Source: an uncultured Candidatus Saccharibacteria bacterium (GTDB lineage: Bacteria; Patescibacteriota; Minisyncoccia; GWC2-36-17; WO2-46-25). Taken from it: a stretch of 45,156 nt of DNA. Below the pieces are notes generated by a model, which saw only the letters and a list, made by a program, of their open reading frames with translations, did no database searches and was not told the origin of the DNA. Within the stretch, counting starts at the first letter, position 1. The number at the start of each line of letters is the position of its first letter. The position numbers and the translations under genes are program-made. Where the stretch lies: positions 1-45,156 of the forward strand of contig CAYIVQ010000001.1 in the NCBI GenBank assembly GCA_964366905.1. Direction: 5' to 3'. Below are positions 1 through 45,156 of the stretch, piece by piece.

Positions 1-2
1 AT

Positions 3-602
3 GGCAAAATCGTCAAAGAAGAAATCAATCCGATGAAAGTGAAGCCGGAATTGATGACGGAAAAAGCGTCAAAAGATATGCGCGAAAAACATGTTCGCGA
101 ATTCGCTGACGCGCTTTCCGATTATTTCTTGAATGTGTCCGAGATTCACCTTAAAGACAAAATGGACGAATTAGTCATAAAAAATTTAACGGGAGAGATG
201 TCTCTTGAAGAATTAAAAAAGATGGCGGCGCTTCCGATGCGAGATGGAGGACTTGGATTTGGAGAGGGAAGGACAGACGAATTGGTTGCGCGCTTGGAAA
301 TGATTATTTTCGAAAGCGAAATTCTAAAACAGGTAGATGATGAGAAAGCCCGTTTCCTGCCTTTAAATAAAGAAGTCGGCGAACTAAGAAGATATGTGTT
401 GTCCGATTACGGAAAGCCGCTGACTTTTTTACGGATTAAACGATTGGAAGAAGCGATAGGAAGCTTGATTCGGGGCGCCATAGACGGCGAAGCGTTTTCA
501 AAAATAGTCGCTCTACCGGAAATTTCCGGCGGAGTCGGGTTTCCCGCTTCCGACGCGTTCCGATTTTTATTTAAATTGAAAATGGTGATGAAGCTGCGTT
601 AA
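3..602 (+). CDS. hypothetical protein, 5' end probably beyond the window edge
   Basis: Frame is open from nt 3 to the stop at 600-602. First in-window ATG is at 33. Two internal copies of an ALPxxxGG[LV]GF motif. No family recognised. Confidence 0.5.
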   Translation, partial: GKIVKEEINPMKVKPELMTEKASKDMREKHVREFADALSDYFLNVSEIHLKDKMDELVIKNLTGEMSLEELKKMAALPMRDGGLGFGEGRTDELVARLEMIIFESEILKQVDDEKARFLPLNKEVGELRRYVLSDYGKPLTFLRIKRLEEAIGSLIRGAIDGEAFSKIVALPEISGGVGFPASDAFRFLFKLKMVMKLR

Positions 603-636
603 CAACTTAACGGCTTACAACTAACAACTTATAACT

Positions 637-768
637 CTTTGAATTACGAAATAGCCATTTTTGTGTCTTTCTGAGGGAGTCAGCGACCGAAGAATCTCTG
701 AAAATCAAGTAAAATACTAGATTCTTCGCAAGCTCAGAATGACAAACTACGCATTTCGTAATTCAAAG
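637..768. mobile_element. 132-bp MITE-like element, copy A
   Basis: Perfect 16-bp terminal inverted repeats CTTTGAATTACGAAAT / ATTTCGTAATTCAAAG. Flanked by direct TATAACT (630-636 and 769-775). Internal 10-bp stem CGAAGAATCT/AGATTCTTCG. Identical to copy B at 5829-5960. Confidence 0.8.
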
Positions 769-814
769 TATAACTACAATAATGAAAAAGTTTAGATTTT
801 TAGATTAGTTATTT

Positions 815-2752
815 ATGTGGCAAACTGAATTAAAACAATATATTGCTAATGTTTCTAAAATGGGATTTCCTGAAGCAAAAATTCGGGATGTTTTGCGCGG
901 CGCGGGATGGAAAGACGACCAAATTAATGGCGGATTCAAAGCCATAAAATTGATGACAATAATAAACGCGCCTGCTATCGCGCTGGATTTGGAAAAAATC
1001 GCGAAAGTGCAAAGAACTTTTCATGACGATTTGAAAAAAGTAAAATCTCAAGAAAAAACCGTTATTTCGCGTCATTCTGAGGAAGTCGGTGACCGAAGAA
1101 TCTCTGAAAATCAAGCAAAATACCGGATTCTTCGCAAGCTCAGAATGACAAATAAGAAGCTTAGTAATCCAAAGTTAATAAAAGAAACATACGAGCATGA
1201 TTATTTTTTGCCGGAAGCCCATGATTATTATCTCGCGCCATCTTCCGCAAGACAACCCGCCGCATTGCTTGCCGGCGCTTCCGCGCCGGCGCCACTAATG
1301 CTTGCTTCGCCGTCATACCTGACGATATGGTGGCGAAAAATTCAATTTTGGACGGAATATTTTTTTACATCATTGGAAGGAGCTCTTGTCATCTTAGGGA
1401 AAACTGCTCTTTTGCCGATTGTGATTATTAGTTTTATTGTCACTGCCATTACTGTATCCATTAAGTCGGTCGCGGCAAAAAAACCTAAAATAAAACAAAC
1501 TCCTGCAATAGAATCTATTACCGAATTTGCATCCGTCTCTGAACAAAATTTTCCGGAACATATTTTAATCCGAGATGTTTTTAGGCTTGCGGGAAGAATG
1601 TTTCGGACCCGCCGCCTGCGGACATTTTTGACAATATTGGGTATCAGCGTCGGCATCGGCACTATTTTATTTTTAGTTTCGCTCGGTTATGGAATGCAAA
1701 ATGTTTTATTTGAAAAAATCACAACCGAAGAAGCATTATTGACTCTAGACGCGATGCCGCCATCCGATAATACTGTGGTTGCTATTAATAAACAATTGGT
1801 GGATAAAATTAAAGAAATCAACGGAGTAGCGGAAGTAAGCGCTATGACAACATTAAGCGGCTCGATTTTGTGGAAAGATTTTTCCGCCGCCGGACTTGTC
1901 AATGTAGTTGACCCGTCTTATTTAAGACTTGCAGGAGTCAAACCTATTGCCGGGATGATGCCCGGATTAAGCGAAAAAAACGTGATTGTTGTTTCTTCGG
2001 CTATTATGCAATTATTTAATTTAAATTCTCCGGAAGAAGCGCTTGGCAAAGAATTAACTTTTGTCGTGTCTTTGGAGAACGGAGAAGAGATGAAATCAGT
2101 AAATTTGGATAATAATTTCAAAGTAGTCGGGGTTGTTGATGACTCATTTTCGGTATTTGCGTATATCTCAAAAGAAGATATTCCGGATTTTGATATTTCC
2201 GAATATTCGCAATTAAAAGTTAAAGTCGCGGACTCTCAATTATTGGAGCCTGTCAGAGAACAATTATTGACTCACGGGCTTTTAGTGTCCGCTCTTTCGG
2301 AAACAGTCGATCAAGCGCGTAAAGTTTTCAATATTGTCCGATTGATACTCGGATTATTTGGCATCATCACTTTAGTGGTTTCCGCTATCGGCATGTTAAA
2401 CACTATGACCATCGCCTTGCTTGAAAGAACGCAGGAAGTAGGGATAATGAAAGCGATTGGCGCTTCTGATTTTGATATTTGGAAGCTGTTTTTAGCTGAA
2501 GCTATGATTATGGGATTTTTTGGAGGAATAGGAGGGATAGCGATGGGTTACTTGAGCGCTAATCTGTTTAATTTAGGCATCAACGCTTTGGCGAAAGCTT
2601 TTGGCGGTCAAAGCCTCAACTTCTTTCAAACCCCGTCATGGTTTGTGCTGACAATCGTAATATTCTCGGTGACTGTCGGCATGATCACCGGTCTTTGGCC
2701 AGCTCGTCGAGCGTCAAGATTGGACCCATTGGACGCGTTGAAATACAAATAA
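815..2752 (+). CDS. ABC transporter permease, MacB/FtsX-like, with ~250-aa N-terminal extension
   Basis: First TM RTFLTILGISVGIGTILF, a large extracytoplasmic loop, then a C-terminal FtsX-type region (IMKAIGASDFDIWKLFLAEAMIMGFFGG). The consensus-like N-terminus (IRDVFRLAGRMFRTRRLR) has no nearby ATG, which supports the long ORF. Confidence 0.8.
   Translation: MWQTELKQYIANVSKMGFPEAKIRDVLRGAGWKDDQINGGFKAIKLMTIINAPAIALDLEKIAKVQRTFHDDLKKVKSQEKTVISRHSEEVGDRRISENQAKYRILRKLRMTNKKLSNPKLIKETYEHDYFLPEAHDYYLAPSSARQPAALLAGASAPAPLMLASPSYLTIWWRKIQFWTEYFFTSLEGALVILGKTALLPIVIISFIVTAITVSIKSVAAKKPKIKQTPAIESITEFASVSEQNFPEHILIRDVFRLAGRMFRTRRLRTFLTILGISVGIGTILFLVSLGYGMQNVLFEKITTEEALLTLDAMPPSDNTVVAINKQLVDKIKEINGVAEVSAMTTLSGSILWKDFSAAGLVNVVDPSYLRLAGVKPIAGMMPGLSEKNVIVVSSAIMQLFNLNSPEEALGKELTFVVSLENGEEMKSVNLDNNFKVVGVVDDSFSVFAYISKEDIPDFDISEYSQLKVKVADSQLLEPVREQLLTHGLLVSALSETVDQARKVFNIVRLILGLFGIITLVVSAIGMLNTMTIALLERTQEVGIMKAIGASDFDIWKLFLAEAMIMGFFGGIGGIAMGYLSANLFNLGINALAKAFGGQSLNFFQTPSWFVLTIVIFSVTVGMITGLWPARRASRLDPLDALKYK
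1043..1174 (+). repeat. decayed 132-bp MITE copy C, translated inside the permease CDS
   Basis: Core 1071-1153 is about 90% identical by eye to copies A/B. The right end is collinear (28 nt from GACAAA to CAAAG, as in A). The left end is degenerate. Read in frame as SRHSEEVGDRRISENQAKYRILRKLRMTNKKLSNPK. Confidence 0.7.
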
Positions 2753-2771: not shown

Positions 2772-2813
2772 AAATTACGCATATAATTACTATAGTAACT
2801 ATACACGTAATTT
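2772..2813. promoter_or_regulatory. 42-bp imperfect palindrome (18/21 pairs) upstream of the PaaX-like gene; candidate operator and/or terminator of the permease gene
   Basis: AAATTACGCATATAATTACTA|TAGTAACTATACACGTAATTT centred on CTATAG. Related to the perfect palindrome at 3410-3467. Ends 21 nt before the ATG at 2835. Confidence 0.5.
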
Positions 2814-2834: not shown

Positions 2835-3419
2835 ATGAAAAAACAAAATAGATCAAAAAATTTACCAAGATTAAAAATTGGCCACACAGGTCAAAAGATT
2901 TTGCTTTTAATCAGCGCTGGGTTAACACTTAGTTTAACACACAGACCGGATCAATATTTTCGAATCATCGCAAACACTAGATATGAATGGCAGAAAATCA
3001 ACAACAGATGTTTGCATGAAGCGATTAAAAGATTATATCAATCAAAGTTAATAGATTATAAAGAAAACAACGATGGGACGATTGTTTTAGTTTTATCCGA
3101 ACAGGGGACACAAAAAATATTAAAATATAATTTAGACACAATAAAATTACAGAGACATGATGAATGGGACGGATTATGGCGATTAGTGATATTTGATATT
3201 CCCGAGCATTTTAAGAAAGGAAGAAGCGCGTTATCAAATAAATTAAAACAACTCGGTTTTTACCCTCTTCAAAAAAGTGTTTTTATTTATCCTTATGAGT
3301 GTAAAAATGAAACTGATTTTATTATTGAGTTTTTTGGAATGAAACCATATGTTAGATTCATTTTAGCCAAAGAAACTGATATTGATTTAGACTTGAAAAA
3401 TAAATTTAATCTAACCTAA
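2835..3419 (+). CDS. PaaX-like regulator (winged-helix N-terminus, PaaX/Cas2-like C-terminal domain)
   Basis: WDGLWRLVIFDIPEHFKKGRSALSNKLKQLGFYPLQKSVFIYP matches the PaaX-family C-terminal signature as I remember it. The central HEAIKRLYQSKLIDYKENNDGTIVLVLSEQG looks like a wHTH. Confidence 0.55.
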   Translation: MKKQNRSKNLPRLKIGHTGQKILLLISAGLTLSLTHRPDQYFRIIANTRYEWQKINNRCLHEAIKRLYQSKLIDYKENNDGTIVLVLSEQGTQKILKYNLDTIKLQRHDEWDGLWRLVIFDIPEHFKKGRSALSNKLKQLGFYPLQKSVFIYPYECKNETDFIIEFFGMKPYVRFILAKETDIDLDLKNKFNLT

Positions 3420-3467
3420 ATTACGTGTATAATTACTATAGTAATTATACACGTAATTTAGGTTAGA
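3410..3467. repeat. 58-bp perfect palindrome between convergent PaaX-like gene and recG
   Basis: Verified base by base: 3438-k pairs with 3439+k for k=0..28, with no loop and no mismatch. Overlaps the stop codon at 3417-3419. Core shared with 2772-2813. Confidence 0.9.
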
Positions 3468-3485
3468 GATGATTATTGTTTATGT

Positions 3486-5774
3486 TTATTCAAAATGAAT
3501 TTTTGCGTTAAATCGCGCAAGATAATTTTTCAGTTTCGGATGGCGGGTTAGTTCCGAGTCTTCTTTAAGCAATTGTATTGCTTCTTCGCGCGCTTCTTTT
3601 ATTAAAATTTTGTTAGTGAGCGACGCCATGGTTAAATCCGGCAGACCGGATTGGCGAGTGCCGAGAAAATCCCCCGGCCCTCTGATTTCCAAATCCTTTT
3701 CCGCGAGCTCAAACCCGTTCTGGCAATTTATTAATGCTTTCAGCCGTCTGCTATTTGCCAATGTCGTATTTTCCGCGAATAAAAGGCAGTATGATTGATA
3801 TTCTCCTCGGCCCACTCTGCCTCTGAATTGATGAAGTTGCGCCAAACCGAAATGCTCCGCCCCTTCAATAAGCATCAAAACGGCATTTGGCACATCAATG
3901 CCGACTTCTATGACTGAAGTTGAAACTAAAATATTGAAGCGATTGGCCTTGAATTCCTTCATGATCCGCTCTTTTTCTTGCGGCTTCATTTTGCCGTGCA
4001 ACATTTCTATTTTCAGATCGGGGAAAATTTCACTGGAAAGTTTTTGATATTCTTCTTTGACAGTTTTGACTTCTTTTTTAAGCAATTCTTGCTGATATGT
4101 TTTTTCGCTTTTGATTTTTGAATCTTCCTGCGCGTCTATTCTCGGACAAATCACAAATGCTTGCCTGCCTTTTCTAATCTCTTCGCGAACAAAATCATAA
4201 GCAGACGTTCGTTCTGAAGGAGTTATTATTTTTGTAACAATATTTTTACGATTTTTCGGCATCTCATTAAGCAAAGAAATATCCAAATCGCCGTATAACG
4301 TGAGAGTGAGAGTGCGCGGTATCGGAGTGGCAGTCATTGATAAAAGATGGGGCATCAGACCGCTTACCGTTTTATATCTTTGCAAAAGTTCAGCCCGCTG
4401 ATTAACACCAAAACGATGCTGTTCATCAAGCACGATAAGTCCTAAGGAAGGGAAAGAGACTTTTTCTGAAATTAGCGCGTGAGTTCCAGTAGTAATTAAA
4501 AGCTTTTTGGACGTTAGCTGATTTAAAAATTCCTGTTTTTTCAGCTTATATTCCGACTTAACTTCAGAATCAAATATTTCAGCGCTGTTGCCGGTAAGCA
4601 GACCGACATTAAAGCCAAATTCGGCAACCATACTGCTTAAAGTATGAAAATGCTGGCGGGCAAGCACTTCGGTTGGCGCCATTATGGCAATTTGGCGGCC
4701 TTTAGAAGCCGCGTTTAACGCGGCAATCGCCGCCACGACCGTTTTACCGGATCCAACATCGCCTTCAAGCAAGCGATTCATCGGGATATTTTTTGACATA
4801 TCCTGTAAAATTTCCCACGCGGCCTTGCGTTGAGAATCAGTCAGCGTGAAAGAAAGAGAAGCGACGAATTTTTTTGTTTTTTCTATGTCAAAAGGTATCG
4901 GTGGCGCGGCAGATTTTTTTATTTTTCGTCTTGCTTTCAGTATAATCAGTTGAATGAGAAGCAATTCTTCAAAAGCCAGCCGTCTTTTCGCTTCTTTCAC
5001 TTCATCAGTATTTTCAGGAAAATGAATTTTTAAAATAGCGGAGCTTATGGGAAGCAGATTATGCTTCTTTATGATTTCTTGCGGGAGAATCTCTTCCATT
5101 TGCGCGGCTTGCCCGTCATACGGCGAGTGCTCCCGTTTTGTCCAAGAGCTTTGCGATTGGCGCACAAAACGCAGTCCAGCGAGGCTTTTGCCGAGTCGTG
5201 GCTCCGCTTTCTCCGTTCGCGGGTTGCCGATCGCGTTTTTCACCAGGAATCTGATCCAACGAGAAGTAATGCCCGCGGTTTCACGATATATCGGCACCAA
5301 TCCTCCAGTATGCGTATGTTCGGAAGTCGAACTTTCAAATATTCTTTCATAAGCGGGATTTTGCAAATATAAAGAGTTGCCGTAAGAAACCGCCTTTCCG
5401 GCCAAATTCACTAAACTGCCGATTTTCAGATTTCGAATCAAAAACGGCTGGTTGAACCACACTGCTTTTATCATGCCGCTTTCATCTGAAACTTCCGCTT
5501 CAGTAACATACATATTTTTTTTCCATGTCCGTTTGTTCGTTATTTTATCTATTTTCGCGCGAATAGTCGCAGTTTCACCAGGAGTCAATTCGGCTATATT
5601 TACAATTTTTGAGAAATCATCATATCGAAATGGAATATGCCGCAAAAGATCATAAACAGTATGAATGCCCAAAACTTTAAGTGGTTTGACAATCTTATAG
5701 TTGACTCCTTTTAACTTTTCTATCGGGTCGGATAAACCGATATTTTTTATATGAGTTTTACCTATCATAAACAA
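3486..5774 (-). CDS. recG: ATP-dependent DNA helicase RecG
   Basis: 762 aa. N-terminal wedge region (HIPFRYDD), Walker A GDVGSGKT, DEQHRFG box, C-terminal helicase motifs (QLHQFRGRVGRG), TRG-like end. Confidence 0.93.
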   Translation of the reverse strand: MFMIGKTHIKNIGLSDPIEKLKGVNYKIVKPLKVLGIHTVYDLLRHIPFRYDDFSKIVNIAELTPGETATIRAKIDKITNKRTWKKNMYVTEAEVSDESGMIKAVWFNQPFLIRNLKIGSLVNLAGKAVSYGNSLYLQNPAYERIFESSTSEHTHTGGLVPIYRETAGITSRWIRFLVKNAIGNPRTEKAEPRLGKSLAGLRFVRQSQSSWTKREHSPYDGQAAQMEEILPQEIIKKHNLLPISSAILKIHFPENTDEVKEAKRRLAFEELLLIQLIILKARRKIKKSAAPPIPFDIEKTKKFVASLSFTLTDSQRKAAWEILQDMSKNIPMNRLLEGDVGSGKTVVAAIAALNAASKGRQIAIMAPTEVLARQHFHTLSSMVAEFGFNVGLLTGNSAEIFDSEVKSEYKLKKQEFLNQLTSKKLLITTGTHALISEKVSFPSLGLIVLDEQHRFGVNQRAELLQRYKTVSGLMPHLLSMTATPIPRTLTLTLYGDLDISLLNEMPKNRKNIVTKIITPSERTSAYDFVREEIRKGRQAFVICPRIDAQEDSKIKSEKTYQQELLKKEVKTVKEEYQKLSSEIFPDLKIEMLHGKMKPQEKERIMKEFKANRFNILVSTSVIEVGIDVPNAVLMLIEGAEHFGLAQLHQFRGRVGRGEYQSYCLLFAENTTLANSRRLKALINCQNGFELAEKDLEIRGPGDFLGTRQSGLPDLTMASLTNKILIKEAREEAIQLLKEDSELTRHPKLKNYLARFNAKIHFE
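5112..5228 (-). repeat. intragenic GC-rich repeat, 114-nt long form, in recG
   Basis: Read on the recG strand as (G)NPRTEKAEPRLGKSLAGLRFVRQSQSSWTKREHSPYDG. The 72-nt internal segment is identical to that at 24330-24401. Confidence 0.85.
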
Positions 5775-5828
5775 TATACTATCATGTTCTTTAGTATTTT
5801 TGAATTATATTATATAATAGCTATAATC

Positions 5829-5960
5829 CTTTGAATTACGAAATAGCCATTTTTGTGTCTTTCTGAGGGAGTCAGCGACCGAAGAATCTCTGAAAATCAA
5901 GTAAAATACTAGATTCTTCGCAAGCTCAGAATGACAAACTACGCATTTCGTAATTCAAAG
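5829..5960. mobile_element. 132-bp MITE-like element, copy B
   Basis: Identical to copy A. Flanked by direct TATAATC (5822-5828 and 5961-5967). Fills most of the recG / GGDEF divergent intergenic region. Confidence 0.8.
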
Positions 5961-5980
5961 TATAATCAGTAAAACACAAG

Positions 5981-19300: not shown

Positions 19301-19572
19301 ACTATTTCGTCTATATTCTCAAATGTGCTGATGATACTCTTTATGTCGGCTCTACTAATGATTTGGCAAAGAGGATTATTCAACATAATACGGCAAAGGC
19401 GGGGGCGCATTACACAAAAATCCGGCGGCCGGTGGAGCTGGTATATTCGGAAACTGTGGAAACTCTTTCAAGGGCGCTCAAGCGAGAAGCTGAAATTAAA
19501 CTCTGGCGCAGGGATAAGAAAATAAAACTCATTCAACCCGCGAACACAGAGAGCGGAGCAGTCGCCGTATGA
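19297..19572 (+). CDS. GIY-YIG nuclease-family protein (UPF0213-like)
   Basis: YFVYILKCADDTLYVGSTNDLAKRIIQH...REAEIK. The last 11 codons and the stop come from the intragenic repeat. Confidence 0.85.
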   Translation: MNYFVYILKCADDTLYVGSTNDLAKRIIQHNTAKAGAHYTKIRRPVELVYSETVETLSRALKREAEIKLWRRDKKIKLIQPANTESGAVAV

Positions 19573-19576
19573 CGGC
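19535..19576 (+). repeat. intragenic GC-rich repeat, 42-nt unit, supplying the GIY-YIG C-terminus and TGA
   Basis: AACCCGCGAACACAGAGAGCGGAGCAGTCGCCGTATGACGGC. Read in its third frame (ANTESGAVAV*), with TGA at 19570-19572. Confidence 0.85.
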
Positions 19577-19618
19577 AATCTACGCGGTAAGGGCATATTT
19601 TGTTATTTATTTTATCCT

Positions 19619-22806: not shown

Positions 22807-22821
22807 CTTTGAATTACGAAA
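22807..22821. repeat. solo MITE terminal repeat
   Basis: CTTTGAATTACGAAA equals the first 15 nt of the 132-bp element. The sequence beyond it is unrelated. Confidence 0.6.
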
Positions 22822-22950
22822 CTCCGCGGACGCTGTTTTTCACAGCCATTATCTAAAACACTCGCTCCTCAGCGATTTCTCTCTTTTTGATATTAATGAA
22901 GAATAAAGTTGTCCTAAAATATGAAGCGCTTCTACCTAAGTTGAGCCATC

Positions 22951-22989: not shown

Positions 22990-23211
22990 ATGCCAATCAC
23001 CAAAACAAGACTTAATATAAGTTTGCCGGATGATGTACGAAATGCATTAAGCAGGCTTGCCCGTCGCGACCAAGTTCCTCAAGCGACTAAAGCGGCGCGT
23101 CTGCTCGAAACAGCTCTTGAGTTAGAAGAAGACCAAGTCTGGGACGCTATTGCCAAACAGCGAGATATTAAAAATGCGCGTTATCTTTCCCATGATAAAG
23201 CATGGAAATAA
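22990..23211 (+). CDS. ribbon-helix-helix (CopG-like) antitoxin
   Basis: TRLNISLPDDVRNALSRLARRDQVPQATKAARLLE. 10-nt overlap with the downstream toxin. Confidence 0.75.
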   Translation: MPITKTRLNISLPDDVRNALSRLARRDQVPQATKAARLLETALELEEDQVWDAIAKQRDIKNARYLSHDKAWK

Positions 23212-23483
23212 TGTTTAATGTTGTCTATCATTATTTAGTGGTTTCTCATGACATTCCTAAGCTTTCCAGTGAATGGAAGAAAAAGATTAGACGAGCGATC
23301 GAAGAGCGTCTCTCTATATATCCTGATCTTTATGGCAGACCGCTAAGACGATCATTGAAAGGATACCGGAAGCTCCGCATAGGTAATTATCGAGTTATTT
23401 TTAGCATTGAGGAAAATACGGTAAAAATTCTCATTATTCAGCACCGTTCAGTGGTTTATGATGAAGTTTCAAAACGAATATAG
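23202..23483 (+). CDS. RelE/StbE-family toxin
   Basis: 93 aa. LKGYRKLRIGNYRVIFSIEENTVKILIIQHRS is the typical RelE/ParE core. Confidence 0.8.
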   Translation: MEIMFNVVYHYLVVSHDIPKLSSEWKKKIRRAIEERLSIYPDLYGRPLRRSLKGYRKLRIGNYRVIFSIEENTVKILIIQHRSVVYDEVSKRI

Positions 23484-23493
23484 ATTGCAGAAA

Positions 23494-24933
23494 CTATAAA
23501 ATATTTTTGCTTGCCGCGGTGCCGGCAACGAATCCGGTGGTCCAGCAGAGTTGGAGCGAATAGCCGCCGGATGGGCGGTCAATGTTGAGCATATCTCCGA
23601 TGATATAAAGATTGGGGAAAAGGCGCGAACGCATCGTCTTTGGATCAATTTCCTCAAGCGAAACTCCACCGCTAGTAATGACGGCTTTGTCCGCACCGAG
23701 AAGTTTGTCCGCGCGCATCGGCAGGTTTTTCAGGCAAGCGATTAATTTCATTCGCTCCTCGCGCGTGATGCTATTTACTACTGTTTCCGGATTGATTTTG
23801 CACTTCGCGATAATAATGGGAGCGAGAGCGGATGGAATAATGCTGTCCAATGAATTCCTGATTTTTTTATTGCTATGTTTTTTAAATAGATCTTTCAGCG
23901 CAATATCAAGCTGTTCGTTATTTAATGATGGGAGAATATCAAGCGACATAACCACTTCTCCGCTTTTTAAAAGTTCGCCGATTGCCTTGCTCATATGCAA
24001 TACCGCGGGTCCGCTGATACCGAAATGGGTAAAAAGAATTTTTCCTCTATTTGTATTATGAACGATTTCATTTTGAATAGCGTTGATTTTTACATCCGCA
24101 ATGCTGACGCCGGAAAGTTGTTTTGCCCATGAGTCTTTTATGGCAACCGGCACAAGCGAAGGAGTGGGTATAGCGATATTATGCCCGAGCTTTTTTAGCC
24201 ACGCAAAGCCATCTCCCGCAGATCCGGTTTCCGGGTGAGAGCCTCCGCCGGCGGCAACAATGATCGCGTTGGCATGGATTTCTTTACCGTCGCGCAATAT
24301 TACGCCAGTTGCCGTCATACGACGACTGCTCCCGTTTTGTCCAAGAGCTTTGCGATTGGCGCACAAAACGCAGTCCAGCGAGGCTTTTGCCGAGTCGTGG
24401 CTCCGCTCTCTGCGTTCGCGGGTTGCCATCATACGGTGACTGCTCCGCTCTCTGCGTTCGCGGGTTGCCTTTGGCATAGACGCGCGGGAAACAATGATAT
24501 CACTAACAGGAGAATCGGATATTACCGTTACTCCGCCTTCGCGCATATATTTCACTAACACATCCCATACCGATCTCGCGCTGTCGCTGGCGGGGAAAAC
24601 CCGCTGTTCATTTTCTATTTTAGTCGCCATCCCGCGAGTATTGAAAAAGTTGAGAGTATCTTGAACGCTCCATTGCGAAAAAGCAGAAAAAAGAAATTTG
24701 CCGTCGTCTTTAAATTTTTCCAAGAATTTTCGCGTATTAAATTCCGCGTTGGTGAGATTGCATCTGCCTCCGCCGGTGATCAAAAGCTTTTTGCCAAGCG
24801 TATCATTTTTTTCAATCAACGCCACGCGCGCTCCGCATTCAGCCGCCCGCCCGGCCGCCATCATCCCCGCAGACCCTCCGCCGATGACAATGACATCCCA
24901 TATGTTATCCGTTTTTGATTTCATATAATTCAT
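23494..24933 (-). CDS. HI0933/BaiN-like FAD-dependent oxidoreductase
   Basis: WDVIVIGGGSAGMMAA, LITGGGRCNLTN, C-terminal GGYSLQLCWTTG. Interrupted in frame by 156 nt of repeat. Confidence 0.85.
   Translation of the reverse strand: MNYMKSKTDNIWDVIVIGGGSAGMMAAGRAAECGARVALIEKNDTLGKKLLITGGGRCNLTNAEFNTRKFLEKFKDDGKFLFSAFSQWSVQDTLNFFNTRGMATKIENEQRVFPASDSARSVWDVLVKYMREGGVTVISDSPVSDIIVSRASMPKATRERRERSSHRMMATRERRERSHDSAKASLDCVLCANRKALGQNGSSRRMTATGVILRDGKEIHANAIIVAAGGGSHPETGSAGDGFAWLKKLGHNIAIPTPSLVPVAIKDSWAKQLSGVSIADVKINAIQNEIVHNTNRGKILFTHFGISGPAVLHMSKAIGELLKSGEVVMSLDILPSLNNEQLDIALKDLFKKHSNKKIRNSLDSIIPSALAPIIIAKCKINPETVVNSITREERMKLIACLKNLPMRADKLLGADKAVITSGGVSLEEIDPKTMRSRLFPNLYIIGDMLNIDRPSGGYSLQLCWTTGFVAGTAASKNIL
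24311..24469 (-). repeat. intragenic GC-rich repeat, tandem 114-nt + 42-nt units
   Basis: 24311-24424 (long) and 24425-24466 (short), plus GCC. Translated on the gene strand in the alternative frame as ATRERRERSSHRMM-ATRERRERSHDSAKASLDCVLCANRKALGQNGSSRRMT. Confidence 0.9.
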
Positions 24934-25012: not shown

Positions 25013-26041
25013 ATGACAAAAGGATTTTGGGAAAAAGATAAGTCGCTTTTCACGCTTGCGCCAATGGCGGACGTGACGGACGCGGCATTCCGGCAAATTA
25101 TTGCCAAATACAGCAGGCCTTATGGCCCCGACGCAATATGGACGGAATTTGTTTCCTGTGACGGCTTGTGTTCTGACGGCAAAGACGCACTGATGCATAA
25201 TCTCTGGTTCACGGAAGTCGAGCGCCCGATTGTGGCGCAATTTTTCGGATCCAAGCCGGATAATTTTTACCGGTGCGCTTTGCTTGCTCAAGAACTCGGT
25301 TTTGACGGCATTGATATCAATATGGGATGTCCGGATAAAAAAGTTGAAAAACAGAATGCCGGCGCGGCGCTGATGCGCAATCATGAATTGGCTCAAAAAA
25401 TAATCATTGAAACGAAGCGTGGAGCGGGAAATCTGCCTGTGTCTGTTAAAACCCGCATCGGGTACGATTCCGATATTTTAGACGAATGGCTGCCAAGATT
25501 GCTTGAAACGGAACCGGACGCCATCACAATTCACGCGCGCACGCGCAAAGAAATGTCTTTAGTGCCAGCTCGCTGGGAAGCGATAGCGCGAGCGGTAGAA
25601 ATCGCACGCCGATATGATTCTTCGCCGAATCGCGCGCTGATTATAGGAAACGGAGATATCGTGAGCATGATAGACGCGGAAGAAAAAGTGCGGCAATCAG
25701 GCGCGGACGGCGCGATGATAGGGCGGGGGATTTTCGGCAACCCATGGTTTTTTAATAGAGAAAAAGATATAAACACAATAAGCATTGAAGAAAAATTATT
25801 AGTGCTGATTGAACACGCTTTTTTGTTTGAAAAATTATTTGCCGGCAACCCGCGAACAGAGAGAGCGGAGCAGTCGTCGTATGACGGCATAAAAAGTTTT
25901 AGCGTAATGAAAAAGCATTTTAAAGCGTATGTGAGCGGATTTGACGGGGCCAAAGATTTGCGAATTAAACTAATGGCCGCGCGCGACGCCAACGACGTCG
26001 CGCAAATCGTAGAAAAATATCGTGCTTTTTTTGTAAAGTAA
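25013..26041 (+). CDS. tRNA-dihydrouridine synthase
   Basis: LAPMADVTDAAFR, DGIDINMGCP, ITIHARTR, GNGDI, IGRG. Confidence 0.9.
   Translation: MTKGFWEKDKSLFTLAPMADVTDAAFRQIIAKYSRPYGPDAIWTEFVSCDGLCSDGKDALMHNLWFTEVERPIVAQFFGSKPDNFYRCALLAQELGFDGIDINMGCPDKKVEKQNAGAALMRNHELAQKIIIETKRGAGNLPVSVKTRIGYDSDILDEWLPRLLETEPDAITIHARTRKEMSLVPARWEAIARAVEIARRYDSSPNRALIIGNGDIVSMIDAEEKVRQSGADGAMIGRGIFGNPWFFNREKDINTISIEEKLLVLIEHAFLFEKLFAGNPRTERAEQSSYDGIKSFSVMKKHFKAYVSGFDGAKDLRIKLMAARDANDVAQIVEKYRAFFVK
25847..25888 (+). repeat. intragenic GC-rich repeat, 42-nt unit, in dus
   Basis: AACCCGCGAACAGAGAGAGCGGAGCAGTCGTCGTATGACGGC read as NPRTERAEQSSYDG. Confidence 0.85.
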
Positions 26042-28565: not shown

Positions 28566-30416
28566 ATGAAAAAAACCGGTCCGACAATCAGAATATTGGA
28601 ATTGTTCAAAAGCCGAAAGAAAGCGGTTCTGATAATGGCGGTTTTTATCACGGCCTCGACAGGACTTGATTTGTCCGTGCCTCTTATTTCTCAAAAACTG
28701 ATTGACAGGCTTATTGAATTTTTCAAAACAGGCGGAGCGCCGCCATTTGGTTTTCTTTTTATATCTGCAATCGGTATTTTAGCTGCTACCATCTTGAGTC
28801 GCGTCTTCAGTTCGCTTTATAATTACAATCTTTTTAAAACCGTGACTCAAGTGGAAGATGAGGCAAGACATGCGGCTTTTGAAAAATATTTGCGTTTGCA
28901 CGCTCTATTTCATCACAAATCATCAAGCGGCCAAATTATCGGCAGGATTGAGCGGGGCGGCGGGGCAATTTACGCAATCGCGCATGATATTTTCGGCCAC
29001 AATCTCATACCGCCGCTAATAGTGTTTATCAGCACATTGGGAGTGCTTTTATTTAAAAATCCATTTATCGCTTTGGTAGTATTCGTGCCATTTCCTCTTT
29101 ACCTTTTAACCATACGGCGGCTTACCGATAAAATATATAATATTGAGAAAGTGGTTAACGAGCAATTTGAAGATGTATCTAAAGAAGCGTATGACGTGGC
29201 CGGCAATGTGCTGACCGTCAAAAAATTCGCTGAAGAGAACGCGGAAGCTGCTAAGCAAAAAAGATTGATGGATAAAGCGAGGCTGACGCAATACGGAGCT
29301 GAACAGCTTTGGAATGTATTAGAAAATATCCAAACATTATTCGCGACCTTAGGTAGAATAGCGGTTATTATTTTGGGAGGCTTTCTAGTCTTGAAAGGTA
29401 TGAGCACTATCGGCGAATTTGTATTGTTCGTTTCCCTTCAAAATATGGTGTATTCTCCTTTAGTGAAATTATCAATCGTATTTCCTCGCTTGCGACGCAA
29501 CACAGCCCGCGCGGAGCGTTTATTTGATATAATAGATGAACCTATCAGCGTTACCGACAAGCTGGACGCGAAAACGCTGCCTCCGCTGGAAAATTCAATT
29601 ATATTCCACGATGTTTCATTCCGCTATGGCAACCCGCAAACGCAGAGAGCAGAGCAGTCATCGTATGATGGCCAAGCTCATCAATGGGCTGTACAAAATA
29701 TCAATATTGAAATTCCGGCGCGCGCGACAGTGGCGCTGGTGGGAAGAAGCGGTAGCGGCAAAACCACTTTTATCAATTTATTGCTTCGCTCATACGACCC
29801 GACAGAAGGAGATATATTGATTGATGGGCAGAATCTGAAGGATGTTAAACGCGAAAGTTTGCTTAAGCAAGTAGCTGTAGTTCCGCAAGAGGTAGATCTC
29901 TTTTCCCGCTCTATTTTAGGCAATATCGCGTACGGGAAGCCGGAAGTAAGTCGTGAAGAAGTCATTCAGGCGGCAAAGACCGCTCTCGCGCATGACTTTA
30001 TTATGAAAACAGAGAATAGATATGATACTATAGTAGGGGAACGAGGCATGAAGCTTTCCGGAGGCGAACGCCAGCGGATCGGAATCGCGCGGGCTGTATT
30101 GCGCGACCCGAAAATCCTGATTTTAGACGAAGCTACCAGCCATTTAGATACCGAAAGCGAACAACTAATCTCTCAAGCAACAGACGATTTAGTAAAAAAC
30201 AGGACAACTATTATCATCGCGCATCGCCTCTCCACAGTTTTAAACGCTGATATGATTTTAGTGTTCAATGATGGAAAAATTGAAGCAAGCGGAAAACACA
30301 ATGAATTATTGAAAACAAGCGCCACATATCAAAAACTTTATTCTTTGCAGTTCCGCGATAACGACAACCCGCGAACACAGAGAGCGGAGCAGTCGCCGTA
30401 TGACGACAAATCTTAA
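28566..30416 (+). CDS. ABC exporter, fused permease/ATPase (MsbA-like)
   Basis: Six-TM N-terminal half. NBD with GRSGSGKTT, LSGGERQRIGIARA, ILILDEATSHLD. Confidence 0.92.
   Translation: MKKTGPTIRILELFKSRKKAVLIMAVFITASTGLDLSVPLISQKLIDRLIEFFKTGGAPPFGFLFISAIGILAATILSRVFSSLYNYNLFKTVTQVEDEARHAAFEKYLRLHALFHHKSSSGQIIGRIERGGGAIYAIAHDIFGHNLIPPLIVFISTLGVLLFKNPFIALVVFVPFPLYLLTIRRLTDKIYNIEKVVNEQFEDVSKEAYDVAGNVLTVKKFAEENAEAAKQKRLMDKARLTQYGAEQLWNVLENIQTLFATLGRIAVIILGGFLVLKGMSTIGEFVLFVSLQNMVYSPLVKLSIVFPRLRRNTARAERLFDIIDEPISVTDKLDAKTLPPLENSIIFHDVSFRYGNPQTQRAEQSSYDGQAHQWAVQNINIEIPARATVALVGRSGSGKTTFINLLLRSYDPTEGDILIDGQNLKDVKRESLLKQVAVVPQEVDLFSRSILGNIAYGKPEVSREEVIQAAKTALAHDFIMKTENRYDTIVGERGMKLSGGERQRIGIARAVLRDPKILILDEATSHLDTESEQLISQATDDLVKNRTTIIIAHRLSTVLNADMILVFNDGKIEASGKHNELLKTSATYQKLYSLQFRDNDNPRTQRAEQSPYDDKS
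29631..29672 (+). repeat. intragenic GC-rich repeat, 42-nt unit, in the ABC exporter NBD
   Basis: AACCCGCAAACGCAGAGAGCAGAGCAGTCATCGTATGATGGC read as NPQTQRAEQSSYDG, between FRYG and the Walker A strand. Confidence 0.85.
30366..30407 (+). repeat. intragenic GC-rich repeat, 42-nt unit, forming the ABC exporter C-terminal tail
   Basis: AACCCGCGAACACAGAGAGCGGAGCAGTCGCCGTATGACGAC read as NPRTQRAEQSPYDD, 3 codons before the stop. Confidence 0.85.
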
Positions 30417-44101: not shown

Positions 44102-45156
44102 TAAGAGTCGGTTTTGAATGCGAACAATTGGAGGGAAATAGGTTTGGAGTGGGGCATACTCTCGCCCAGCTTTTGGAAGTGTTCGCGCAAATTCCGGAGA
44201 TAGAAAAACAATTCCGGTTTGTTTTACATTTCAAAAAAGAAATCCCGAAAGATAATTTTTTATCGCATCCGGTTTTTGAAAAAAGAATTTTAACAGGAGG
44301 GATAATCCCGCCCAGTTTTAATGTTTTCTATCATATCCTTATTCCGATTGCGTATTGGCGCGATAAACTAGACTTATACTTTTTCCCTTCATACATGCTA
44401 CCGGCGTTTTTTGTCGGCAAATCTATCGTTGTGCTGACCAATGATGTTTATTGGGAAGCGCATCATAGCAATCTTCCATTCAAATACCGCTTAGCTTACA
44501 GATTATTTTGCTGGTGGGCGGCAAAACGAGCCGATAAGATTTTGACTATTTCGGAATTTTCCGCCAGTGAATTGCGAAAGTTTTATAATATTTCCCGCGA
44601 AAAAATCTTTGTGAACTCATGGGGATTGGAAAAAATATTTCAAGAACTACCTAAAGACGAAAAATATCTCTCGGAAATTCAAAAAATTAAAATCCAATTT
44701 GGCATTGAGAATAAATTCTTCCTTTCCATTGGTCAAGCGTTCCCGCGCAGACATATTAAAGAAGCAATGCTCGCGTTCGCTTCAATCGCGAATCAATATT
44801 CGGACACGCAATATCTTGTCACCGCTACTGACAAATATGAACCGCCTATATTGGAGAATTTAGTCAAAGAAATCAACCAAAAAGCCGGCAGACGAGCGAT
44901 TATTTACGTCAAATATCTTGATCGAAAAATATTGCCGCATTTGATGAACGAAACGCTCGCGCTGATTTACGTTTCCGATAAAGAAGCGCTCGGCCTGCCG
45001 CCGCTTGAAGCGCTCGCTTGCGGCCGTCCGGCGATCGTGAAAGACAACGAGATCTCGCGCGAACTTTTCGGCGAGCAAGGATATTTCGTTGCAGATACAA
45101 ACAACCCGCGAACGCAGAGAGCGGAGCAGTCACCGTATGATGGCAACCCGCGAACG
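44098..45156 (+). CDS. GT4 (GT-B fold) glycosyltransferase, 3' end beyond the window
   Basis: Not in the ORF track because no stop is reached. ATG at 44098 overlaps the upstream TGA. My own translation gives MIRVGFECEQLEGNRFGVGH...SDKEALGLPPLEALACGRPAIV (E-x7-E type motif), then runs into the 42-nt repeats. Confidence 0.78.
   Translation, partial: MIRVGFECEQLEGNRFGVGHTLAQLLEVFAQIPEIEKQFRFVLHFKKEIPKDNFLSHPVFEKRILTGGIIPPSFNVFYHILIPIAYWRDKLDLYFFPSYMLPAFFVGKSIVVLTNDVYWEAHHSNLPFKYRLAYRLFCWWAAKRADKILTISEFSASELRKFYNISREKIFVNSWGLEKIFQELPKDEKYLSEIQKIKIQFGIENKFFLSIGQAFPRRHIKEAMLAFASIANQYSDTQYLVTATDKYEPPILENLVKEINQKAGRRAIIYVKYLDRKILPHLMNETLALIYVSDKEALGLPPLEALACGRPAIVKDNEISRELFGEQGYFVADTNNPRTQRAEQSPYDGNPRT
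45103..45156 (+). repeat. intragenic GC-rich repeat, tandem units (second truncated by the window edge)
   Basis: 45103-45144 is AACCCGCGAACGCAGAGAGCGGAGCAGTCACCGTATGATGGC. It restarts at 45145. Read as NPRTQRAEQSPYDG-NPRT. Confidence 0.85.

What the first reader, a model, noticed from the sequence alone, without database searches (positions are those of the whole stretch)
1043..1174. A decayed copy of the 132-bp MITE is translated as part of an ABC permease N-terminal extension, 275 bp from an intact copy
The segment 1071-1153 matches the MITE core nearly base for base (GACCGAAGAATCTCTGAAAATCAAG.AAAATAC..GATTCTTCGCAAGCTCAGAATGACAAA). The distance from the core to the CAAAG end is exactly the same as in the intact copies. 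The left terminus is degenerate. The whole 132 nt (44 codons) is open in the permease frame, giving ...SRHSEEVGDRRISENQAKYRILRKLRMTNKKLSNPK.... This could be exaptation of the element, or it could be recent 5' extension of the ORF through MITE-derived DNA.
Basis: partly seen in the sequence, partly recalled or inferred. Interest (0 to 1): 0.65.

Follow-up and report, generated by a model that had tools for sequence, protein, structure and literature searches.

The report
Transposon remnant translated inside a transporter gene
About 104 bases of a small non-coding transposon (a MITE) sit in frame in the variable linker of an ABC-transporter permease of a candidate-phyla-radiation bacterium and are almost certainly translated as a 27-35 residue basic stretch, a known kind of event not described for this group and with no sign of an acquired function.

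Summary
The window has two identical 132-bp MITEs (637-768, 5829-5960). Each has perfect 16-bp terminal inverted repeats and a 7-bp target duplication. A third, partial copy lies in ORF 815-2752.

Only 1071-1174 (104 nt) of that copy is MITE-derived: a 79-nt hairpin 91% identical to the intact copies, and a right terminus matching 12/14 in exact register.

The 250-aa N-terminal extension is real. It is found in 15 orthologs down to 48% identity, with dN/dS 0.14-0.18 on both sides of the insert. Translation therefore starts at ATG 815 and runs through the insert. The closest orthologs (84-89% identity) lack the segment.

The TAG in the intact element's loop would be in frame here. In this copy alone it is CGG.

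The insert lies in a hypervariable, low-confidence linker, so I read it as a tolerated passenger, not an exaptation. "Recent 5' extension of the ORF" is refuted.

Two other lineages of the same permease carry related hairpins in the same linker. A 1,025-bp IS982-like element with the same termini is the likely autonomous partner.

In-frame MITE insertions are known (Rickettsia RPEs, ERIC, Coxiella QMITEs). This is a new member of a known kind.

The parts
1071..1174 (+). Copy B: the MITE-derived segment inside the permease ORF (aa 86-120, RHSEEVGDRRISENQAKYRILRKLRMTNKKLSNPK; pI 11.0)
   Evidence: 88/104 identical to A 665-768 without gaps. Absent from orthologs L001 and L002.
1071..1149 (+). 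Core hairpin of copy B: GTCATTCTGAG / CTCAGAATGAC outer stem and CGAAGAATC / GATTCTTCG inner stem
   Evidence: 72/79 identical to A. The 88-nt stretch 1066-1153 that contains it folds at -26.5 kcal/mol, z = -3.4.
1124..1126 (+). CGG codon (R104) where A and C, and the copies in L019 and L020/L021, have TAG. TAG would be an in-frame stop here.
1161..1174 (+). Remnant of the right terminal inverted repeat (TTAGTAATCCAAAG, 12/14)
   Evidence: It is at the same distance from the core as in A and C.
1052..1070 (+).
   Evidence: 15/19 identical, in the same frame, to L002 GAAAAAACAGTTTTCTTGC. The element's left 28 nt, aligned to 1043-1070, match at only 8/28.
1175..1181 (+). TTAATAA: host heptamer next to the right end, and the likely target site. 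Orthologs have CTAATAG or TCAATCG here.
   Evidence: Other copies sit in T/A-rich heptamers.
815..2752 (+). MacB/FtsX-type ABC permease, 645 aa. N-terminal small domain aa 1-50, variable linker aa 51-170, extra hydrophobic helix aa about 168-220, MacB_PCD aa 270-484, FtsX aa 514-638.
637..768 (+). Copy A: intact 132-bp MITE between the ABC ATPase gene and the permease gene. Its 7-bp duplication TATAACT is at 630-636 and 769-775.
   Evidence: -44.3 kcal/mol, z = -6.4. In L001 the two genes are 5 nt apart.
5829..5960 (+). Copy C: intact MITE identical to A. Its 7-bp duplication TATAATC is at 5822-5828 and 5961-5967. It sits on a promoter-like TTGAAT-16-TATAAT site between the RecG and GGDEF genes.
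1..602 (+). 3' part of the partner ABC ATPase gene, which has a long C-terminal extension
   Evidence: 92% identical to aa 234-422 of the 422-aa ABC_tran protein of L001.
22807..22822 (+). Solitary terminal repeat of the same family (CTTTGAATTACGAAAC, 15/16) with no partner

Best explanation
The element is a non-autonomous transposon (MITE). Its 16-bp termini and 6-8-bp target duplications match those of a 1,025-bp IS982-like insertion sequence, which probably moves it in trans. Its interior is a long hairpin. One copy landed in the poorly conserved linker between the small N-terminal domain and the membrane part of a MacB/FtsX-type permease, next to a T/A-rich heptamer (TTAATAA).

An intact insertion of 132 + 7 nt would have shifted the frame and brought stop codons. 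What survives is the right-hand 104 nt. That is what a 58-nt deletion removing the left duplication, the left 28 nt of the element and 23 nt of host would leave, for a net gain of 81 nt, or 27 codons. The loop TAG, the only stop in the remaining stretch in this frame, has become CGG.

The gene is read from ATG 815 through the remnant. The remnant contributes a basic 27-35 residue stretch to a flexible linker and is tolerated rather than used.

Shown: the homology and its limits; absence of the segment from the closest orthologs; purifying selection on both sides of the insert; loss of the stop; the MITE features of the intact copies.

Inferred: the order of events (insertion, deletion, stop loss); mobilisation by an IS982-type transposase; the lack of a function for the peptide.
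For: Three copies against 0 expected by chance. A and C are identical, with TIRs and TSDs. Family members with the same TIRs and 7-8-bp TSDs occur in other Patescibacteria MAGs and metagenomes: L010, L015, L019, L020/L021. In L037, bases 2866-3890 carry the same termini (15/16 and 16/16), a TATCCA duplication and a 268-aa DDE transposase (Pfam DDE_Tnp_1_3 99 bits; NCBIfam IS982 E = 8e-33).

P0001 and P0003 lack 33 aa at the site. The window has +99 nt against L001 and +57 nt against L002. The N-terminal extension is conserved in 15 orthologs. dN/dS is 0.14-0.18 flanking the insert, against 0.04-0.06 in the permease core. TAG is CGG only in B. The linker has pLDDT below 50.

Related hairpins sit in frame in the same linker of two other lineages. 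L003/P0009 has +93 nt against L022/L023, and the proteins are 87% identical. L024/P0005 has a hairpin in a different frame with a recognisable right TIR.
Against: There is no expression or proteomic data, so translation is inferred from conservation. The route from a full insertion to an open frame needs at least three changes, and so either a period with an interrupted gene or a one-step aberrant insertion. Neither can be shown. No target duplication can be identified for B. The IS982-like element comes from a different, unidentified contig (IMG/VR), not from this genome. Its NCBIfam score (114 bits) is below the curated cut-off (130), and no transposase is found in the window. The recurrence of hairpins in the same linker of three lineages could point to something more than tolerance.
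Confidence: 0.8

Rival explanations
1. Exaptation: the inserted hairpin, or the basic peptide it encodes, has acquired a role in the permease. Examples would be an RNA structure that tunes translation between the N-terminal domain and the membrane part, or a basic linker segment that contacts the membrane or the ATPase.
For: The stop codon was removed and the frame kept open. Related hairpins occupy the same linker in three lineages of the family, two of them at the same junction. The hairpin stems are intact in B, and its outer stem is better paired than in A or C.
Against: The segment is absent from the closest orthologs. The three lineages carry different subfamilies, read in two frames, so no common peptide is kept. 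pLDDT is 33-48. No protein in the 5.8-billion-sequence collection shares three 5-residue words with the peptide. An open frame is a precondition for the gene to survive, not evidence that the insert is used.
Confidence: 0.1
2. The permease really starts downstream of the insert at an internal ATG, GTG or TTG, for example M162 or M262. The upstream 'extension' would then be an untranslated or separately translated region, and the MITE remnant would be non-coding.
For: Most MacB/FtsX permeases of Patescibacteria are about 400 aa and align only from about aa 250 of this ORF. In-frame ATGs exist at 1298 and 1598.
Against: All 15 aligned relatives keep one continuous ORF with a conserved N-terminal domain and a hydrophobic extension. 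dN/dS is 0.14-0.18 in the extension and 0.06 in its hydrophobic helix. In L001 the ATG follows 5 nt after the ATPase stop, a coupled arrangement. The N-terminal domain recurs in other proteins.
Confidence: 0.05
3. Only the hairpin (about 81 nt, 1072-1152) was inserted, as a mobile module of its own. The match of 1161-1174 to the MITE terminus would be chance, and KKLSNPK would be diverged host sequence orthologous to KPPETPP of L002.
For: The net gain over an L002-like ancestor is exactly 81 nt, and the two stretches have equal length. The hairpin occurs without these TIRs in Binataceae and proteobacterial MAGs and in L003.
Against: The terminus matches 12/14 in exact register, about 1e-5 by chance at a fixed position. 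Over the eight codons 1151-1174 (N K K L S N P K), by hand count, identity is 15/24 to the MITE and 9/24 to L002. B's loop is the one found only in TIR-bearing copies: A, C, L019, L020.
Confidence: 0.1

Closest known systems
Rickettsia palindromic elements (RPEs; Ogata et al. 2000, 2002, as summarised in PMC10969869)
   Same: Short palindromic repeats of 100-150 bp, inserted in frame into otherwise conserved protein-coding genes and read through as extra peptide segments at tolerant positions. Their contribution to protein function is unexplored.
   Different: RPEs are found in frame in dozens of genes of one genome and encode a conserved peptide. Here one gene in the window carries the MITE remnant. 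Other lineages of the same gene carry other subfamilies in other frames. The element has classical TIRs and TSDs and an IS982-like candidate partner. Sequence relatedness to RPEs was not tested.
Bacterial MITEs that form in-frame fusions: intragenic ERIC elements, Coxiella QMITE1/QMITE2, Anabaena MITEs (PMC10969869, PMC5896051, PMC3184786)
   Same: Small non-coding elements with TIRs, TSDs and a strongly folding interior. They are mostly intergenic and occasionally sit in frame inside ORFs, where they add basic peptides. QMITE1 peptides have pI about 12; here pI is 11.0.
   Different: The host is a candidate-phyla-radiation bacterium. The terminal sequence is different. The in-gene copy is a truncated right-hand part whose in-frame stop was lost.
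IS982-family insertion sequences
   Same: The candidate autonomous element is about 1 kb, with a single DDE transposase ORF of 268 aa, short TIRs and a 6-7-bp TSD. Its TIR equals the MITE TIR at 15/16 and 16/16 positions.
   Different: The window element encodes nothing. The transposase scores below NCBIfam's IS982 cut-off (114 against 130 bits). It was found on an unrelated contig, not in this genome.
REP / REPIN-type extragenic palindromes
   Same: A multicopy hairpin-forming repeat. The core hairpin also occurs without TIRs in other phyla.
   Different: It has no GTAG or CGTC tag and no RAYT gene was seen. The window copies have TIRs and TSDs, which REPs lack.

Membership tests
MITE (miniature inverted-repeat transposable element) | Small size (about 50-500 bp) and no coding capacity of its own | tested here: met
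   132 bp. Five of the six frames of the intact copy contain 2-3 stops and one contains 1.
MITE (miniature inverted-repeat transposable element) | Terminal inverted repeats | tested here: met
   A and C have perfect 16-nt TIRs. B has only the right TIR, at 12/14.
MITE (miniature inverted-repeat transposable element) | Target-site duplication that differs between copies | tested here: met
   TATAACT (A), TATAATC (C), TAATTAT (L015), TTACTTAG (L010), TTTGTTA (L019), TAACTAA (L020). None can be identified for B.
MITE (miniature inverted-repeat transposable element) | Multiple dispersed copies, and filled versus empty sites in relatives | tested here: met
   Three copies plus a solo TIR in 45 kb. 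The B site is empty in L001 and L002. At the A site the ATPase and permease genes are 5 nt apart in L001.
MITE (miniature inverted-repeat transposable element) | An autonomous element with the same termini that can supply transposase | tested here: inconclusive
   L037 2866-3890 has the same TIRs, a TATCCA duplication and an IS982-like DDE transposase. It is on another contig. None is in the window, and the rest of the source genome is not available.
IS982 family (for the candidate partner in L037) | Transposase matches the family model above the curated cut-off | tested here: inconclusive
   NCBIfam transpos_IS982: E = 8.3e-33, 114 bits against a cut-off of 130. Pfam DDE_Tnp_1_3: 99 bits against a cut-off of 27.
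RPE-like protein-coding palindromes | In-frame insertion into a conserved gene at a position that orthologs lack | tested here: met
RPE-like protein-coding palindromes | The same element in frame in many unrelated genes, encoding a conserved peptide | tested here: not met
   Only one gene in the window carries this element, and the peptide search found nothing. A different repeat, D2/D3, does show this behaviour.
RPE-like protein-coding palindromes | Sequence homology to Rickettsia RPE families | not tested
   No RPE sequences were compared.
MacB/FtsX-type ABC permease (the host gene) | MacB periplasmic core domain followed by the FtsX C-terminal permease domain | tested here: met
   PF12704 at aa 270-484 (68.8 bits) and PF02687 at aa 514-638 (73.1 bits). 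An ABC ATPase gene lies upstream.

The most novel reading that the evidence does not exclude
The linker of this Azambacteria-type permease may be a recurrent landing pad that tolerates in-frame insertions of an IS982-derived MITE family. The cargo of that family is a hairpin module whose 30-nt left arm is conserved base for base in MAGs whose record titles name Patescibacteria, Binataceae and proteobacteria. A second repeat, translated as NPRTQRAEQSPYDG, sits in frame in RecG, Dus and an ABC exporter (and, in another frame, in an HI0933-like flavoprotein) of the same 45 kb. Together these would mean that candidate-phyla-radiation genomes carry a Rickettsia-like population of protein-coding selfish repeats, and that the hairpin is a functional unit spread horizontally, for example a protein-binding site or an RNA structure.
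Probability: 0.25. Interest if true: 0.6.

Novelty: new member of a known kind. Interest (0 to 1): 0.4.

Why it matters
The case shows step by step how a small transposon can end up as protein sequence: insertion into a tolerant linker, trimming back into frame, and loss of the one remaining stop. Empty-site orthologs are available as controls. It extends a phenomenon known from Rickettsia, enterobacteria and Coxiella to the reduced genomes of the candidate phyla radiation. For annotators, it is a warning that odd basic segments in these proteins can be repeat-derived. It also gives a MITE family a candidate IS982-type partner, and it flags a hairpin module shared across phyla that no Rfam family matches and that my sequence-string searches of the paper library did not find.

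Tried and rejected
- Rfam, at gathering threshold on the whole window and at permissive E-value on 560-1260: only a tRNA-Gln, and chance-level hits with E above 2.
- Literature searches by sequence strings and by translated motifs (GTCATTCTGAG, CTCAGAATGAC, AQNDK and others): only unrelated primers and plasmids. A search for MITEs in Patescibacteria found nothing relevant.
- Hairpin arm in IMG/VR: 0 hits.
- The 16-mer TIR in IMG/VR: 49 single hits, which by my rough estimate is about what chance would give. Only L037 has both ends in inverted orientation.
- tblastn of the L037 transposase against the window: nothing below E = 1.
- Automatic alignment of the variable segment to L001 and L002: ambiguous. 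I resolved the boundaries by codon-level comparison by hand.
- Rejected, the MITE captured a piece of the gene: the orthologs lack the segment and the hairpin is widespread.
- Rejected, a downstream start: see conservation and dN/dS.
- Considered, a single ancient insertion shared by all three lineages: unlikely. The copies belong to different subfamilies, are read in different frames, and remain close to intergenic copies while the host genes are only about 50% identical. It is not excluded for L003 and L024, which share a junction.
Full report
**1. What is in the sequence**

No dinucleotide-preserving shuffle gave a match. The repeat finder groups 630-773, 1036-1179 and 5822-5965 into one family.

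Copies A (637-768) and C (5829-5960) are identical at all 132 positions. Both have perfect 16-nt terminal inverted repeats, CTTTGAATTACGAAAT ... ATTTCGTAATTCAAAG. Both are flanked by a 7-bp direct repeat that differs between them: TATAACT for A and TATAATC for C. As single strands they fold into a long hairpin of -44.3 kcal/mol, z = -6.4. These are the features of a recently active MITE.

**2. Anatomy of the copy in the gene**

Copy B is in ungapped register with A.

| Part of the element | Window coordinates in B | Identity to A | Source |
|---|---|---|---|
| Left 28 nt | 1043-1070 | 8/28 (chance level) | |
| 79-nt hairpin | 1071-1149 | 72/79 | |
| Terminal 14 nt | 1161-1174 | 12/14 | |

A 14-mer match of that quality is expected 1.13 times in the whole window on both strands. 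At one fixed position that is about 1e-5, so the right terminus is real.

The left terminus is not there. Bases 1052-1070, GAAAAAACCGTTATTTCGC (E K T V I S), line up in the same frame with GAAAAAACAGTTTTCTTGC (E K T V F L) of the ortholog in L002. That DNA is host sequence. The MITE-derived part is therefore 1071-1174, encoding aa 86-120.

B is not a worn-out copy of A or C. At 1074 and 1088 it has the base found in family members from other genomes (GTCATTCTGAG, TCGG), at 1083 it shares GGAAG with the L015 copy, and at 1116 it shares AAGC with L019 and L020/L021. At 1074, 1088 and 1116 A and C carry the unusual state.

One B-specific change (besides a lone C-to-T at 1090) is telling. The loop TAG would be an in-frame stop in the permease frame, and A, C, L019 and L020/L021 all keep it. 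In B it is CGG, at 1124-1126.

**3. Is it translated?**

ORF 815-2752 encodes 645 aa, with MacB_PCD at aa 270-484 and FtsX at aa 514-638. Most Patescibacteria relatives are about 400 aa and align only from about aa 250. A subfamily of 15 proteins at 48-89% identity covers most or all of the query (82-100%).

In the alignment the extension has three parts:
- a conserved N-terminal domain of about 50 aa (W-Q-x-E-L-K-x-Y-I ... G-F ... L-R-x-x-G-W, with seven invariant positions);
- a linker that varies in length and sequence;
- a conserved hydrophobic helix.

Against the two closest orthologs, dN/dS by region is as follows.

| Region | dN/dS |
|---|---|
| aa 1-76 (upstream of the insert) | 0.14-0.17 |
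| aa 126-262 (downstream of the insert) | 0.18 |
| Extra hydrophobic helix | 0.06 |
| Permease core | 0.04-0.06 |

In L001 the permease ATG lies 5 nt after the stop of the partner ATPase gene. The window's upstream ORF is 92% identical to that ATPase. The N-terminal domain also recurs, sometimes in tandem, in a few other proteins.

Translation therefore begins at 815 and must pass through the remnant.

**4. Is it an insertion?**

Yes. P0001 and P0003 lack 33 aa exactly at this place, and P0002 has a shorter, unrelated stretch. At the DNA level the segment between AAATCTCAA and CATGATTATTTTTTGCCGG is 45 nt in L001, 87 nt in L002 and 144 nt in the window.

The simplest history that fits every boundary has three steps:
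1. A full element inserted with a 7-bp duplication at the heptamer now read as TTAATAA (CTAATAG in L002, TCAATCG in L001).
2. A 58-nt deletion then took out the left duplication, the left 28 nt of the element and 23 nt of host. This left a net gain of 81 nt, or 27 codons.
3. The loop stop was lost.

The arithmetic fits, but the order of events is inference. A one-step aberrant insertion of the right-hand part is also possible.

**5. Function**

The remnant lies in the part of the AlphaFold model with pLDDT 33-48. The N-terminal domain reaches 64-77 and the periplasmic domain about 80. The encoded 35 aa are basic, with pI 11.0. No protein in the large collection shares three 5-residue words with the peptide.

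I see no evidence for exaptation. The open frame is what any surviving copy inside a needed gene must show.

**6. The same linker in other lineages**

P0009 (L003) carries GTCATTCTGAGGGAGTCGGCGACCGAAGAATCTC...CTCAGGATGAC in the same frame (RHSEGVGDRRIS). Its 87%-identical relative P0010 (L022, L023) lacks 93 nt there.

P0005 (L024) carries another subfamily, read in a different frame (VILSQQAKDP...). It is followed by a recognisable right terminus, CGCATCTCGTGATTCAAAA.

L003 and L024 share the junction CAAAA|TTAATA, just before the conserved K-L-I-(L)-S-A motif. P0008 (L025) has unrelated perfect palindromes in the linker.

The linker is thus repeatedly occupied by palindromic DNA. Whether this reflects a target preference for T/A-rich heptamers plus tolerance, or an old resident element that keeps being replaced, is unresolved.

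**7. The element family**

Copies with the same termini and 7-8-bp duplications occur in two Patescibacteria MAGs (L010, L015) and in groundwater-type metagenome contigs (L019, L020/L021). Their interiors are modular: the outer and inner stems are kept while small internal hairpins are swapped.

In IMG/VR the 16-mer terminus gave 49 single hits, which by my rough estimate is about what chance would give. One contig (L037) has both ends in inverted orientation, bounding 1,025 bp, with a TATCCA duplication. It encodes a 268-aa DDE transposase that matches Pfam DDE_Tnp_1_3 (99 bits). Its best NCBIfam match is IS982, at E = 8e-33 and 114 bits, below the 130-bit cut-off. This is the best candidate for the autonomous partner. 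It is not from this genome, and the window has no transposase.

**8. The hairpin beyond this phylum**

The left arm TTCTGAGGNAGTCNGNGACCGAAGAATCTC (27 specified bases) is present exactly in 15 stretches of species-representative genomes:
- 6 in a Candidatus Binataceae MAG;
- 7 in two MAGs titled 'uncultured proteobacterium';
- 2 in Patescibacteria MAGs.

Outside Patescibacteria these copies lack the IS982-type termini. Several end AAGTCATTCTGAGG...CCTCAGAATGACTT, and the loops and right arms vary. No Rfam family matches, and none of my sequence-string searches of the paper library found it. I cannot explain this conservation.

**9. Comparison with what is known**

In-frame MITE insertions are documented for Rickettsia palindromic elements, intragenic ERIC elements and Coxiella QMITEs. 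The QMITE cases include the addition of basic peptides (PMC10969869, PMC5896051, PMC3184786).

The present case works the same way. It is a new family in a new host group. It has an unusually clear reconstruction, because empty sites exist and the stop loss is visible. It does not show the RPE hallmark of one conserved peptide in many genes.

**10. Verdict**

Translation through the remnant is well supported by comparative evidence. Exaptation and 'recent ORF extension' are not supported. The finding is a new member of a known kind and of moderate interest. The cross-phylum hairpin and the second in-frame repeat family (see the items noticed in passing) add some interest.

Noticed in passing
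window 5113-5228, 24312-24427, 19526-19578, 25838-25890, 29622-29674, 30357-30409, 45094-45146: A second repeat family. The short form is about 45 nt (CAACCCGCGAACRCAGAGAGCGGAGCAGTCRCCGTATGAYGGCAA). The long form is 116 nt (two copies, 97% identical) and is the reverse complement of the short form split by about 70 nt. It lies inside real genes and is read in one frame as NPRTQRAEQSPYDG in RecG, Dus, an ABC exporter (twice, once at the C-terminus) and the ORF that runs off the window end. In an HI0933-like flavoprotein it is read in another frame. In RecG it is a roughly 37-aa insertion between the wedge and helicase domains relative to PDB 1GM5. Only one protein in the large collection (P0121, 63 aa) shares the motif. 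This is RPE-like behaviour and may be more remarkable than the finding itself.
   Followed up: partly
L004-L018 (genome-contig hits), e.g. L017 3429-3458, L006 2861-2890: The 30-nt left arm of the MITE's hairpin is conserved exactly in MAGs titled Candidatus Binataceae and 'uncultured proteobacterium'. It is multicopy there, lacks the Patescibacteria TIRs and has variable loops. No Rfam family matches and my sequence-string paper searches found nothing. The reason for conservation across phyla is unknown.
   Followed up: partly
L037 2866-3890: A 1,025-bp IS with the MITE's terminal repeats, a TATCCA duplication and a 268-aa IS982-like DDE transposase. It is the candidate autonomous partner of the MITE family and was found on an IMG/VR contig.
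   Followed up: partly
window 5800-5828 and 5961-5967: Copy C is inserted exactly at a promoter-like site (TTGAAT-16-TATAAT) in the divergent region between the RecG and GGDEF genes. Its target duplication TATAATC repeats the -10-like hexamer downstream of the element. Known targets of the family are all T/A-rich heptamers.
   Followed up: no
window 603-814; L001 1299-1303; L022 1075-1446: The junction between the ABC ATPase and permease genes is 5 nt in L001. It is 212 nt in the window, where copy A plus its duplication accounts for 139 nt and about 70 nt remain unexplained. In L022 and L023 it holds a 23S_rRNA_IVP-family gene. The junction is another insertion hot spot in the operon.
   Followed up: no
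window 2772-2813 and about 3420-3465: Two related, near-perfect AT-rich palindromes of about 42 nt (TAAATTACGTGTATAATTACTATAGTAATTATACACGTAATTTA) flank a PaaX_M/Cas2-like gene (2835-3419). That gene is a conserved neighbour of the permease in L001, L022 and L023. They may be operator sites of that regulator.
   Followed up: no
window 22807-22822 and 22993-23480: A solitary copy of the MITE/IS terminal repeat (15/16) has no partner. It sits next to what look like two small overlapping toxin-antitoxin-like ORFs, which I did not test. It may be the remnant of an element.
   Followed up: no
L025 about 675-720 and 765-800 (linker of P0008); L025 2609-3064: The linker of another ortholog contains an unrelated perfect palindrome (AGCCCAGCTTCCA-CT-TGGAAGCTGGGCT) read in frame. 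A Y1 (IS200/IS605-type) transposase gene lies just downstream of that permease.
   Followed up: no
window 815-964 (aa 1-50): The N-terminal three-helix domain of the permease (WQxELKxYI...GF...LRxxGW) has no Pfam match. It recurs as tandem repeats in a few other proteins (P0123, P0124, P0125), so it is a small uncharacterised domain.
   Followed up: partly
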